Source: Eledone cirrhosa
Taxonomy: Eukaryota
Length of the DNA stretch: 64,000 nucleotides
Direction: 5' to 3'
Assembly (NCBI GenBank): GCA_964016885.1
Contig: OZ024740.1
Location: forward strand, 323,702,001-323,766,000
Numbering within the stretch: position 1 is the first letter of the stretch; each line of letters opens with the position of its first letter. The notes under the pieces were generated by a model. That model made no database searches, was not told the DNA's origin, and saw only the letters and a program-made list of their open reading frames with translations. This document shows, in pieces, positions 10,521 through 57,731 of this stretch. A program made the translations under genes and the position numbers.

Positions 10521-10591
10521 TGTTTTATCTGATGAAAACACAAATATTATTGCATGATGATATTTGTTTTTGAAATGCGCATAATAAAATA
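10521..10591 (+). ncRNA. Minimal hammerhead in insert 10296-10627
   Basis: UGUUUUAU-CUGAUGA-stem II (ACAAAUAUUAU/AUGAUAUUUGU)-GAAA-UGCGCA-UA-AUAAAAUA; palindromic stem III. Confidence 0.85.
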
Positions 10592-11139
10592 CATGGAACT
10601 CCTTTAACCATCTTTTGTTCTTATATATATATATATATATATATATATATATATATATATATATATATATATATATATATATATATATATATACACATAT
10701 ACTTATATATGTATATATATGCATACAGATATATATGTATATATATATATATACATATACATATATATGTATATATATATTTACATACATATATATATAT
10801 ATATATATATATATATATATATATACTTATATATGTATATACATACATATATACATATATATATACATACATATATACATATATATATATATATATACTT
10901 ATATATGTATATATATATATGGTGGCTGCCAACTCGTTTTCGAGTACGGCCACTACTTTATATCCATGTAGGAGAACCCCTACCGATGCGCTGAACGAGT
11001 GTGACTTTTTAGTCCAGCCAGCGACTTGAAAACTCTGGTACAATCACTACACTTGTGACAATTATTGGCACATAGTGTTGGGCCCATGGTACCATCTGAC
11101 GACAAGTGCAGAGAGATCTCCAGATATAAAGCAATGCCT

Positions 11140-11280
11140 GTGCCGTGAAGTTTTTATAGTGAGCAAAGGCAATGCACAAAGCCAGTCCCACTCTCTTAAC
11201 CAAGATGATATTTACCAAAAAGAAGAACAAGTCAACATCATTGGATACCATCAGGGTTGCAGGTGTTATATCAGAGTTTT
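11140..11280 (-). pseudogene. Possible degenerate LINE (RTE-like) reverse transcriptase fragment
   Basis: SNDVDLFFFLVNIILVK..GLALCIAFAHYKNF resembles the RT segment STIDHIF..IIEK..PLCIAFVDYKKAFD; weak. Confidence 0.3.
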
Positions 11281-11724
11281 CCTTCTCCTAGAATTCTGCC
11301 TTGACAAAGGCTAAGGGGTCATCTCTCCCGGTGATTTTAGATGGCCATTGACTCTTAAGGGCTCCTTTGCCCTTTTGACAGGTTTTGACAGGTTTATACA
11401 TACATATATGTATATATGTATGTATATATGTATGTATATATATATATACATACATATATACATACATATATACATACATATATACATATATATATATATA
11501 TATATATACTTATATATATATATATATATATATACATACATATATACATACATATATACATATATATATATATATATATATATATATATATATATATATA
11601 TATATATATATACTTATATATATATATATATATATATATATATACATACATATATACATACATATATACATATATATATATATATATATATATATATATA
11701 TATATATATATATATATATATATA

Positions 11725-12104
11725 CAGTGAATCTTCACTTATCCGGACTGTCAAAACCAAACAGTTAGCAAAAGATCCGGTTAAGTGAAATATCCGGATA
11801 AGTGAATTCCAAAATCCCATTGTTACATAATGCTCGTGGTTTCTAATGTTTTGGCTTCTTTTAGTCAAAATAAGAGACAAATGCAAAGTAAAGAAAGTTT
11901 ATTAGAATAACAAAAGAACAGCTAGAATTGATAAGAAAATTAATTAAACAAACATAAGAATAACTAAAAACTTGGTAAAACTGAATTGAATCAAACCATA
12001 AAAAGTTAGTACCCTTTTAAAAATGAATAAATAGTAGTATAGAAATAGCCGTCCGGTAAATCGAATTTCGGCAAAGCGATATCCGGATAAGTGAAGATTC
12101 ACTG
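11725..12104. mobile_element. Tc1/mariner-pogo type MITE
   Basis: Perfect 23-bp TIRs CAGTGAATCTTCACTTATCCGGA, TA on both flanks, subterminal TCCGG(A/T)TAAGTGAA repeats. Confidence 0.9.
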
Positions 12105-12124
12105 TATATATATATATATATATA

Positions 12125-13140
12125 GGAACCAGTAAGACCCCGACGGCTGAGATCAAGCCGTTTCGACGGCTAATTGTGATAAAAAAATTTTGACACAGTA
12201 GATCGTTAAGATTCAGTCATGGTCAATATTCATTCAGTCTGTTGAGTGCTTCCAATCTATTGTAAAAATCATTCTTTAATTTATTCATTGAACCTTGTGT
12301 AACCTTTAAATATATATATATATATTTTTTATATATATATATATATATATATATATATATATATATAGGAAGGTTCAGGACCCCGACGACAGAGCTCAAG
12401 CCATTTCGATGGCTATTTCTGGACTCTGGTGCGTTATGGTCCACCTGGTTCTTTACCACACTTCCTTCATTATATATATATATATATATACTACTGTGAT
12501 TGGAAATTTACCGATTGGATTGAACTCTGTCTTTTACCTATAAAATCCCACTTGAACTTTGAAATAATTTTTGTCTTTAAATGGTTGTATTATCAACTCA
12601 TCTAAACTCTTTTATTACTATATATATATATATATATATATATAACGAAGGAAATGTGGTAAGGAACCAGGTGGACCATAACGCACCAAAGTACTCAATA
12701 CTTGAGATAGTAGAGTGGGTAATAGGAACCAGTAAGACCCCGACAGCTGAGCTCAAGCCGTTTCGACGGCTAATTCTGGACTAAATGAAAATTTATCCTG
12801 GTATTTAAATAGCCGAGCTTCTCAAGGGGTAATTCCATATATGGTCAAAGTGATTGTCAAAAGTTAGTAGTAATTAGCCGTCGAAACGGCTTGACCTCAG
12901 CCGTCGGGGTCTTACTGGTTCCTATATATATATATATATATATATATATATATATATATATATACATACTACGGATGCAAAAAGGTCAAAGGGACGGATT
13001 GCATATATATATATATATATATATATGAAGAGATTTAGGACCCCGGCGATCCTGAATCTCTTCATATTACCCACTCTACTATCTCAAGTATCGAGTACTC
13101 TGGTGGGTTATGGTCCACCTGGTATTCTACCACACCCTAT
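12125..13140. mobile_element. Cluster of family E fragments (half-hammerhead element) in both orientations
   Basis: GACCCCGACGGC..CAAGCCGTTTCGACGGCTA at 12136, 12379, 12736 and inverted at 12872-12911; tail GAGTACTCTGGTG(C/G)GTTATGGTCCACCTGG shared with the 57985 and 63486 copies. Confidence 0.75.
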
Positions 13141-55225: not shown

Positions 55226-55544
55226 ATATAGTCATCTGTTATATATCATTCTCCTATATTACCACAACGTGTTAAGAAGTTTTGTTGATGAGATTAAAAT
55301 GGATTAAAACAAAATGAAGCTCCTATTAGAAAACCTAGAGCACTACACCACACACACAAGCATACATACACATACAGCCACACAAACATATATACCTATG
55401 TGTGATGCGTATGAAAGTATGTATATATGTAAATATTCATATACACGACACACCAGACATACATCTGTCACCCCACATATGTCTGTGTGTGGGGGATGAC
55501 GGTGTATAATGTTGTAGTGATATAGCTCTCTAAATATATATATA

Positions 55545-56395
55545 TATCAAAGGTATATATTGAGTTAGAAACTCAAAATAATCTCTTACAATAAAATAGT
55601 TCTAAGAAAGAGATTTTTCCGAGCCGTATATCATAATTGAACATAAAAGAGAGATAAACACAGATATATACATATATGTGTTCAAATCGTAAGGGATCAG
55701 GTTCACTAAGGTGAAAAAAATACTAACTATGGACAATAGGGTTTGCCAGACTCAATTTAGAATAAATCAAGAAAATAAATACAAACCGGAATTGTGGTAA
55801 CTACCAATCACCCATACAGCGCTTGGCTATGTTGTTTCGCAAATTAATTGCGAAGAGAATTACCAATTCTTGCTCATCAGTGGGTGGAAATTAGTAAACT
55901 TCTCACTTCTAAGAATATCAGACAACTGAATAGTGTGCGGATATATAATAACGCACATGGTAGTAGAACTTAGCGTGTCTCACAAACTCACACCACTAAA
56001 AATAGCAGCCAAGTTTACTCGACATTTAAATTAGCTCGACAAATTAACGGAGCCGAATATATCAAAGGTATATATTGAGTTAGAAACTCAAAATACTCTC
56101 TTAGAATAAAATAGCTCTAGGAAAGAGATTTTTCCGAGCCGTATATCATAATTGAAGCAAGAATTGGTAATACTCTTCATAATTAATTTGCGAAACAGCA
56201 TAGCCAAACGCTGTATGGGTGATCGGATTGTATTTATTCCGGTTTGTATTTATTTTCTTGATTTATTCTTAAATTGAGTCTGGCAAACCCTATTGTCCAT
56301 AGTTAGTATTTTTTCACCTTAGCGAACCTGGTCCCATACGATTTGAACTCATATATGTATATGTCTGTGTTTATCTCTCTTTTATATTCAATTAT
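55545..56395. mobile_element. Element with direct plus inverted repeat (pLTR-like) layout
   Basis: Direct repeats 55545-55640 and 56060-56156; inverted repeats 55634-55873 and 56157-56395. Confidence 0.8.
55810..55885 (-). ncRNA. Type I hammerhead with full stem III
   Basis: ACCCA-CUGAUGA-GCAA..UUGC-GAAA-CA(A/G)C..GCUG-UA-UGGGU; the partial copy at 56157-56220 has the paired CAGC. Confidence 0.85.
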
Positions 56396-57163
56396 ATATA
56401 TATATATATATATATATATATATATATATATATATATATATATATATATATATATATATCAAGATAAGCAGAACAAGTAAAATTCAACCAATTTTTCAAA
56501 ATAAATCAAAATTAATTTACAATTAAAATTAATCAAAATTAAAAAATATAATATAAATATTTACCTATTCGAGTGGCTCTTACTGTACAGTTTCACTTTG
56601 CAAAACATTAGATATCACATGGATATTAATGGAAAAGCAAAGATCATCAGAGAAGCATTTTCCTTTCCTAGGGTTAAAAACCCCAGGAACGATAAGATAT
56701 ATGACCTCACTCCAACTAATACAGGTCTGAAAGGTCGTGAAAGCGACCCATAAATACGTTGGTGTAAAGTAAAGGCGGGAAATCGTAGACTTGTTGTCTA
56801 TGTTCGCCACCAAAAATAAATTTAGCAGCTAGATAGAACGACATAATTTTTTCTCTACATAATCGGAGAATAATGAATAAGGTTAATATATATCTGAGGG
56901 TACAATGTACCCCCAGAAATACATAGGTTGTCTATGATTCAAGGTGGTTCTATGGTAATAATTTGATATACCAGAACTTAATATCAAGATAAGCAGAACA
57001 AGTAAAATTCAACCAATTTTTCAAAATAAATCAAAATTAATTTACAATTAAAATTAATCAAAATACATGGGAAGGGACGAGGGATATAAGAACACACGCC
57101 TTGTCCGTTCCCTTGTCGTTTCACTTTGGATTGCCTCGGGAACGTAACCTTATTATGTAAGAA

Positions 57164-57238
57164 TCTGTCTGATGATGTCATGGCACTGGGTAAACGGAAT
57201 CGTGTGGCCACTGTCGTCATTGAAATATGTATCACAGA
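57164..57238 (+). ncRNA. Probable damaged hammerhead
   Basis: UCUGU-CUGAUGA...GAAA-UAUGUA-UC-ACAGA; stems I and III fit, but the stem II register overlaps the core. Confidence 0.55.
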
Positions 57239-57610
57239 ATTATCAATAAAGGACTTTAACATCTGAAACTACTTCGCATTTTCTTATTATTATGTATATA
57301 TATATATATAATAATAATGCTACCATTCTATTTTATATCAATGTGAACTGCTATTTCTAATAGCCATCTTTTCACCCCTTGATAATTTGTGTGTGAGACA
57401 CGTTGGCTGAGGGCTTCTGACAGGAACTAAAAGATTGACTCTTTTTAGCTTCCCGTCCCCACGTAAAATTTGTAAATCGGTGGCTAGTTGAGAGATAGAG
57501 TCCTATCGGTTGCCAGTTGCTAATCGCTTTACCGTGTCGGTTGTCACAAACAGTCATGACCAGCATGGGTCGGTGTTTGGATTCTGTCGATCGATTGGTT
57601 ATTGATTAAG

Positions 57611-57731
57611 CGATACCCGCTGATGAAGCCGCATAAGTCGATTGTGCATTGTTGCATAATATATGCAGACAGATGGTGCAGTGCACCTTACTGCTGCATT
57701 AGTGCGGCGGAAACTCGAGTCCAGGAACGTT
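57611..57731 (+). ncRNA. Hammerhead with long branched stem II
   Basis: CUGAUGA(57620)-A-GCCGCA..UGCGGC-G-GAAA-CUCGAG-UC; palindromic stem III; stem I imperfect. Confidence 0.7.

What the first reader, a model, noticed from the sequence alone, without database searches (positions are those of the whole stretch)
10572..57721. Different palindromes recur at stem III, implying dimeric hammerheads
Seen: between GAAA and UH the families use UGCGCA (10576), CUAG (23336), CCGG (25007, -), CAAUUG (30628 - and 34859), UAUAUA/UAUGUA (families B, C, 51452), CUAAUUAG (53909) and CUCGAG (57714). The sequences differ but all are self-complementary. Established: minimal HHRs with an unstable stem III can cleave as dimers that share this helix. 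Inference: cleavage needs two copies, in tandem or in trans, and the palindrome could give family specificity.
Basis: partly seen in the sequence, partly recalled or inferred. Interest (0 to 1): 0.72.

Follow-up and report, generated by a model that had tools for sequence, protein, structure and literature searches.

The report
Dimer-type hammerheads at Penelope retroelement ends
The window holds about twenty hammerhead RNA motifs left by many families of jumping genes; their short self-complementary third stems are real and likely let two copies pair up and cut themselves, a design already published, and the palindrome alone does not tell the families apart.

Summary
Real, but a published design. 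All cited palindromes lie between GAAA and UH. The window holds 21 complete type I hammerhead motifs; 34859 is a remnant without core. In 1.49 Mb of this genome plus the window, a finder blind to stem III gave 41 families. Pairs that only a dimer can form are Watson-Crick in 63 of 76 cases (20.7 expected; loop II control 15 of 65). One lineage shows compensatory changes at the innermost pair. The motifs sit at 3' ends of Penelope-like retroelements (Hydra clade shown) and in tandem arrays. Palindromic loop III as a dimer signature is in print (PMC3088659, PMC4209133, PMC6765202). Stem I plus stem III together nearly separate families (5 of 820 pairs compatible), but selection for that is not shown. 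No RNA evidence. The scan reached the same conclusion on other DNA of this genome (e1-10309698, e1-8664523).

The parts
7588..7672 (-). Type I hammerhead, insert CCGCCGG (odd length); left arm of 299-bp fold-back 7462-8082
7872..7956 (+). Type I hammerhead, insert CCGCCGG; right arm of the same fold-back
8340..8404 (-).
10521..10591 (+). Type I hammerhead, UGCGCA; 3' end piece of a Hydra-clade Penelope-like element; 22,305 pattern matches in the genome
23303..23349 (+). Type I hammerhead, CUAG; family also forms a 422-bp direct tandem array (L150); one stem I mismatch here
24041..24101 (+). Family B hammerhead with a broken insert ACUAUA
24569..24654 (+). Type I hammerhead, CCGCCGG
24997..25042 (-). 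Hammerhead with U3-A8 core, CCGG; stem II mismatch in this copy
30618..30747 (-). Hammerhead with C4 core, about 95-nt helix II, CAAUUG; 500-600 nt 3' of a Hydra-type endonuclease fragment
31237..31602 (-). Fragment of a Hydra-type PLE ORF (linker and GIY-YIG region), E 5e-28 to a locus ORF
31971..32106 (-). Type I hammerhead, 101-nt helix II, CGAUCG
34786..34930 (.). Fold-back of two 5'-truncated ends; holds GAAA-CAAUUG-UC but no core or stem II
35189..35254 (-). Family C hammerhead, UAUGUA; left arm of fold-back 35156-35456
35358..35423 (+). Family C hammerhead, UAUGUA; right arm
35950..36014 (-). Family B hammerhead, UAUGUA; left arm of fold-back 35902-36193
36081..36145 (+). Family B hammerhead, UAUGUA; right arm
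36445..36510 (-). Family C hammerhead, UAUAUA; left arm of fold-back 36392-36760
36642..36707 (+). Family C hammerhead, UAUAUA; right arm
51449..51509 (-). Type I hammerhead, UAUAUA, unrelated stem I; one stem I mismatch in this copy
53839..53926 (+). Type I hammerhead, CUAAUUAG, cleavage triplet ends in U
56573..56658 (-). Type I hammerhead, CUGUACAG; lineage with three compensatory palindromes and 485-bp tandems
57161..57241 (+). Type I hammerhead, UAUGUA, a further family
57612..57729 (+). Type I hammerhead, 83-nt helix II, CUCGAG; stem I mismatch in this copy

Best explanation
These are type I hammerhead motifs at the 3' ends of many families of Penelope-like retroelements and their tandem derivatives, and their palindromic stem III likely lets two copies on one read-through transcript swap strands and fold into a double hammerhead that would cut both sites. 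Shown: the motifs, their place at both ends of full elements 3.3-3.9 kb apart and in direct arrays, and conservation of pairs that only a dimer can form. Inferred: paired cutting releases a unit-length RNA that can be circularised and copied, while a lone copy or monomer circle is cut slowly. Partner choice would rest on stem I and stem III together. The copies in this window are truncated or inverted remnants and are probably inert here.
For: Family census blind to the insert: 63 of 76 dimer-only pairs Watson-Crick, 72 of 76 with G-U, against 20.7 +/- 3.8 and 31.4 +/- 4.1; no shuffle of 20,000 reached it; counting each of 30 distinct inserts once 43 of 54 against 13.7; loop II control 15 of 65. 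One lineage: CTGATCAG 64, CCGATCGG 16, CTGTACAG 15, other 5 of the first 100 of 806 matches (counted by eye). Strand asymmetry: UAUGUA 28,062 against UACAUA 136 in the same context. Model energies: forming stem III in a monomer costs 5.4-5.9 kcal/mol for 4-nt and 0.9-4.4 for 6-nt inserts except CGAUCG (-0.2); the homodimer beats two monomers by 4.6-16.4 kcal/mol at 19 of 20 sites, the exception being the broken 24086 copy. Same-strand UGCGCA motifs flank a 738-808-aa ORF in L021, L022, L027 with the Hydra motifs. Direct arrays: 422 bp x 23.7 (L150), 311 bp (L104, L178), 485 bp. Published: PMC4209133 results and discussion, PMC3088659 Fig. S8 legend, PMC6765202 passage.
Against: No cleavage or expression data. 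A family with 19,051 matches, at the ends of an 852-aa PLE ORF, has no palindrome in the first 100 listed (GAAC, GGAC, GAGC); its homoduplex is unfavourable (+1.4). 5 of 41 families are not palindromic and 5 have a central unpaired base. Monomer stem III is predicted favourable for 7-8-nt inserts (-0.3 to -2.4). Only 32 of 156 sampled copies have a same-strand family partner within the 10-kb stretch, 24 of them in three arrays. Dimeric PLE hammerheads cleaved weakly in vitro, and 8 of 9 Xenopus dimer elements did not cleave (bioRxiv 10.64898/2026.07.22.740005 passage). Families are related by descent, so counts are not independent events; the 28,062 may stem from few masters.
Confidence: 0.72

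Rival explanations
1. The ribozymes cleave well as monomers (helped by loop I-loop II contacts, long helix II or proteins); the palindrome only adds an optional dimer route.
For: Single-copy coral (0.8 per min) and mussel (0.1 per min) constructs cleave; invertebrate helix III is described as 2 bp plus tetraloop, the geometry of the 23 of 41 families with 6-nt inserts; 7-8-nt inserts are predicted stable alone; the GRRC family thrives without a palindrome.
Against: Pairs impossible in a monomer are kept and covary, which needs selection on a dimer; the paper did not exclude trans dimers in the passages I read; the axolotl 2-bp form still cleaved far better as a dimer.
Confidence: 0.17
2. The palindrome is a family code, selected so that each element pairs only with its own kind.
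For: 30 distinct inserts in 41 families; inserts exclude 14 of 19 family pairs whose stem I would cross-pair, and only 5 of 820 pairs pass both tests; UGCGCA and UAUGUA families share stem I but pay about 6 kcal/mol as heterodimers.
Against: 17 of 41 families share an insert (UAUAUA x4, CAAUUG x4); stem I excludes 32 of the 37 insert-compatible pairs; stem-I-compatible pairs share inserts more often (26%) than pairs overall (4.5%), as descent predicts and avoidance does not; B x C heterodimers cost -0.5 to +1.0. Drift under a pairing constraint gives the same diversity.
Confidence: 0.07
3. The palindrome acts as double-stranded DNA (a protein site) or is a chance by-product, and RNA dimers play no part.
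For: Bare GAAA-palindrome-UH occurs about 9 times per window by chance; even-length 4-8-bp palindromes resemble protein sites (general knowledge).
Against: The sequence changes freely while pairing stays; G-U forms on the ribozyme strand outnumber A-C forms (8 families against 1); fixed place inside an intact hammerhead core.
Confidence: 0.04

Closest known systems
Hammerheads with small palindromic helix III in pseudo-LTRs of metazoan Penelope-like elements (Cervera and de la Pena 2014, PMC4209133; read: abstract, results, discussion, part of methods)
   Same: Type I topology, palindromic 15.2-16.2 and loop 3, unpaired base before stem II, U3-A8 core variant, many variable families per genome, mostly single or inverted copies, a few flanking an RT ORF about 3 kb apart, proposed dimer cleavage.
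   Different: Inserts of 4-8 nt rather than none; helix II up to 101 nt; several families with a fixed C4 core; larger numbers (three single patterns give 22,305, 28,062 and 19,051 matches).
Repeat-type hammerheads with palindromic stem and loop III (Perreault et al. 2011, PMC3088659; passages and Fig. S8 legend only)
   Different: Other organisms; the figure itself was not seen.
Lunse, Weinberg and Breaker, RNA Biol 14:1499 (PMC5785218; not held, known only by title and through reviews PMC6765202 and PMC6466107, passages)
   Same: PLE-associated small hammerheads with a palindromic short stem III that cleave as dimers.
   Different: Cannot say whether it covers this genome or heterodimer specificity.
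Hydra clade of Penelope-like elements (Craig et al. 2021, PMC8557442; section 11 and passages)
   Same: RW motif, DKT, CxCX5C linker, C-terminal GIY-YIG with CxxC and CxH, canonical hammerhead, (TA)n insertion, tandem and inverted ends.
   Different: Shown only for the UGCGCA, CGAUCG and 30628 families; others are tied to a different PLE type or not tied to any ORF here. Supplements not read.
Animal non-LTR retrozymes (Cervera and de la Pena 2020, PMC7229834, sections 13, 14 and passages; Li et al. 2026, bioRxiv 10.64898/2026.07.22.740005, passages)
   Same: Direct tandem units of 150-450 bp with one type I hammerhead (CUAG family 422 bp, CGCG family 311 bp).
   Different: Circular RNA not shown here; the 485-bp unit is slightly longer; window copies are single.

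Membership tests
Type I hammerhead ribozyme | Core CUGANGA ... GAAA ... UH with stems I and II | tested here: met
   21 window sites; two carry published core variants (U3-A8; U4C); 34859 fails
Type I hammerhead ribozyme | Match to an Rfam hammerhead model | tested here: inconclusive
   No hammerhead among the 150 listed of 178 matches at E <= 1; 28 weaker ones not shown
Type I hammerhead ribozyme | Self-cleavage 3' of H17 | not testable with these tools
   Needs in vitro assay or raw RNA reads
Dimer-type (double) hammerhead | Short stem III with palindromic loop | tested here: met
   31 of 41 families perfect with G-U, 5 more with one central unpaired base, 5 not
Dimer-type (double) hammerhead | Second copy on the same strand in tandem | tested here: inconclusive
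   Met in full elements and arrays elsewhere; in the window close same-family pairs are inverted, though 35366+/36650+ and 35246-/36502- are same-strand family C copies 1.3 kb apart inside fold-backs
Dimer-type (double) hammerhead | Dimer cleaves, monomer does not | not testable with these tools
   Only nearest-neighbour energies
Hydra-clade Penelope-like element | Single ORF with RT and C-terminal GIY-YIG; RWK-like, DKT, CxCX5C, CxxC, CxH motifs | tested here: met
   P0001: RLRWI, SDKTN, YRDD, CNCPVKNKC, CNLC, CLH. Pfam gave no hit at E <= 0.1 for P0001
Hydra-clade Penelope-like element | Hammerhead-bearing terminal repeats, direct and inverted; insertion in (TA)n | tested here: met
   L021, L022, L026, L027 layouts; 22 of 22 window sites have a TA run 14-334 nt past the cut site, no chance control run
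Hydra-clade Penelope-like element | Placement in the RT phylogeny | not tested
   No reference sequences fetched, no tree built
Non-LTR retrozyme | Direct tandem 150-450-bp non-coding units with one hammerhead | tested here: met
   L150, L104, L178; not in the window itself
Non-LTR retrozyme | Expression as linear and circular RNA | not testable with these tools
   No RNA run was offered for the L150 unit
   17 of 41 share exactly; 37 of 820 pairs compatible at the insert

The most novel reading that the evidence does not exclude
Stem I and the stem III palindrome together form a near-orthogonal self-recognition code among dozens of co-resident Penelope-like families (5 of 820 family pairs cross-compatible), and sister subfamilies switch palindromes by compensatory double changes in order to escape being cut by, or wasted on, each other's transcripts in trans.
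Probability: 0.1. Interest if true: 0.6.

Novelty: new member of a known kind. Interest (0 to 1): 0.2.

Why it matters
The core claim is textbook for these elements. What this genome adds is scale: dozens of families and natural compensatory variants at pairs that only a dimer can form, which is good comparative support for the dimer model and a ready panel for asking whether PLE hammerheads cleave in cis across 3-4 kb, in trans, or across families. If partner choice were under selection it would be a case of RNA-level kin recognition among retroelements, but my data fit drift equally well.

Tried and rejected
Rfam scan: only low-complexity microRNA-type matches among those listed. Pfam on four PLE ORFs: only a weak RVT_1 hit (E 0.012) on one. 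RVT_1 search of the genome returned other retroelements; loci L041-L050 were left out of the census. Sequencing runs for the CUAG array unit: no RNA holder listed; read laying not used. Lunse et al. could not be read. I first took the UGCGCA element for Neptune; the motifs fit Hydra. I first doubted 25007 and 30628 because a CUGANGA-only finder missed them; both have variant cores. 13 of 54 clusters were dropped before the family statistics: 12 single-locus U3-A8 clusters, the class with most control hits (15 of 20), and one with an empty insert; most of the dropped are not palindromic, so the drop favours the result, and undropped counts are given (87 of 192 perfect). A second lineage search showed mostly CGAUUG and CAAUUG (G-U or A-U at one pair) but also a recurring CAUUUG that breaks the inner pair. 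Paper searches for cephalopod retrozymes, hammerhead plus octopus and heterodimer specificity found no paper on a family code; most subscription papers are not searched. Earlier notes near this place: none.
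Full report
Setting. The window is repeat-rich DNA from a 3.0-Gb animal genome (G000:C1:323702001-323766000; tandem repeats). The repeat content recalls an octopus genome; that is recall and no call shows it. Rfam listed no hammerhead among its best 150 of 178 matches, so I wrote a descriptor of my own.

Observation. Every cited palindrome is present between GAAA and UH; the one at '51452' is at 51459-51464. A finder for the CUGANGA core, stem II and stem I recovered 16 window sites. Manual parsing added 23336, 51464 and 57714, which carry a stem I mismatch, 25007 with a U3-A8 core and 30628 with a C4 core and a long helix II: 21 complete motifs. 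34859 has no core; it is the truncated centre of a fold-back, while its relatives elsewhere are complete.

More than chance? The bare motif is weak: 26 in the window against 8.9 +/- 3.2 in shuffles. The full test used 149 stretches of 10 kb taken at fixed positions (1.49 Mb) and a finder that places no demand on the 0-14 nt between GAAA and UH: 192 hits, against 6 in reversed and 14 in three shuffled copies; 87 perfect, 18 G-U and 21 odd-length palindromes, against 2 perfect among 20 control hits. With the 16 window hits these fell into 54 clusters; 13 were dropped (12 single-locus U3-A8 clusters, one empty insert), leaving 41. Any hairpin is self-complementary in its stem, so I scored only pairs that would close a loop under 3 nt in a monomer. 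63 of 76 are Watson-Crick (null 20.7 +/- 3.8, maximum 36 in 20,000); counting each distinct insert once, 43 of 54 (null 13.7); the same positions in loop II give 15 of 65. Families are related, so these are not independent events. Two further lines point to RNA pairing. The lineage of window site 56583 has three perfect palindromes that differ by double changes, one at the innermost pair (95 of the first 100 of 806 matches, counted by eye). The G-U form UAUGUA has 28,062 matches, the A-C form UACAUA 136; this may reflect few master elements.

What carries them. The UGCGCA family has 22,305 matches, control 0, many as divergent inverted pairs. In L021, L022 and L027 two same-strand copies 3.3-3.9 kb apart flank an ORF of 738-808 aa. 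A Hydra-type fragment lies in the window at 31237-31602, upstream of the 30628 motif. The most widespread family in the sample sits at the ends of a different 852-aa PLE ORF, Neptune-like by its linker (label from PMC8557442 passages, no tree). The CUAG family of site 23336 also forms a 422-bp direct array of 23.7 units; other families form 311- and 485-bp tandems. Most of the 41 families were not tied to an ORF in my sample (4 clusters were).

Mechanism. In a double hammerhead the 5' half of one copy pairs with the 3' half of the other, so both stem III and stem I are exchanged (geometry from PMC4209133 Fig. 1 legend and established knowledge). Nearest-neighbour energies, which ignore tertiary contacts, make monomer stem III costly for 4-nt inserts (5.4-5.9 kcal/mol) and most 6-nt inserts (0.9-4.4), but favourable for 7-8-nt ones; the homodimer is favoured at 19 of 20 sites. 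The likely working unit is a transcript that runs through both ends of an element or through an array; paired cutting would free a unit-length RNA, as proposed in PMC4209133. In the sample 87 of 156 copies are single, 37 have only an inverted partner and 32 a direct one. In the window the four close pairs are inverted arms, and folding puts 47-68 of each motif's 49-68 nt in the fold-back duplex, so these copies are probably inert.

Results against obligate dimers. The GRRC family has 19,051 matches and no palindrome in the first 100 listed, though its outer G-C pair is kept. Single-copy coral and mussel constructs cleave at 0.8 and 0.1 per min. Published dimer activity of PLE hammerheads is low and 8 of 9 Xenopus dimer elements gave no product. 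No expression data could be had.

Family specificity. 17 of 41 families share their insert exactly. Window families B and C form heterodimers at -0.5 to +1.0 kcal/mol relative to homodimers, UGCGCA against UAUGUA costs about 6. Over 820 family pairs, 37 are compatible at the insert, 19 at stem I, 5 at both; the insert excludes 14 of 19 and stem I 32 of 37. So partner choice would be nearly family-level, but from both helices, and the pattern is what descent with drift predicts.

Prior art. Palindromic loop III with dimer cleavage is stated in PMC4209133 (abstract, results, discussion read), PMC3088659 (passages, Fig. S8 legend), PMC6765202 and PMC6466107 (passages), and PMC7229834 (two sections and passages). 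Lunse et al. was not held and may bear on heterodimers. Supplements of these papers were not opened and may list this organism's families. Searches found no paper on a family code. Earlier notes of this scan reached the same reading on other DNA of this genome; they are not independent support.

Verdict. Observation confirmed, dimer reading likely right and already known, obligate dimers unproven for the longer inserts, palindrome-only specificity not supported. New members of a known kind; interest 0.2.

Noticed in passing
window 30722-30739 (-); L139, L194, L204: Several families carry a fixed C4 core (CCGANGA); in the 30628 family 98 of the first 100 of 555 copies. PMC3088659 says U4C lowers activity in vitro but is tolerated in a viroid.
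   Followed up: partly
L204:1711-5937 (-) and 19,051 genome matches: Abundant PLE family whose insert is G-R-R-C (GAAC, GGAC, GAGC): outer pair kept, inner positions purines, which would give tandem purine mismatches in a dimer.
   Followed up: partly
window 31971-32106, 57612-57729, 30618-30747: Helix II of 83-101 nt, some branched, far longer than in the published PLE hammerheads I read about.
   Followed up: no
L150 (G000:C28:110000001-110010000): Direct tandem array of a 422-bp unit, at least 23.7 copies, filling the whole stretch; same hammerhead family as window 23336.
   Followed up: partly
L104:8750-9683, L178:6165-7877: 311-bp hammerhead units (insert CGCG) in tandem; in L178 arranged as two divergent arrays.
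   Followed up: no
window 37695-46143: Satellite of a 37-bp unit, about 230 copies, 95% matches.
   Followed up: no
window 72-445, 58628-59269: Tandem copies of 187-bp and 225-bp repeats that look like SINE pieces (recalled resemblance, not tested).
   Followed up: no
window 18439-18660 (+): 94-bp duplicated unit with CTGACGA and GAAACAT(A)G motifs; did not pass the hammerhead finder, possibly a decayed or permuted form.
   Followed up: no
window 1509-6549 and 46197-48277: Long GTG/GGT-rich tandem tracts with strong strand skew; their long open frames are low-complexity.
   Followed up: no
L029, L033: Helitron-like Rep/helicase ORF fragments just upstream of the window and elsewhere (resemblance by eye).
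   Followed up: no
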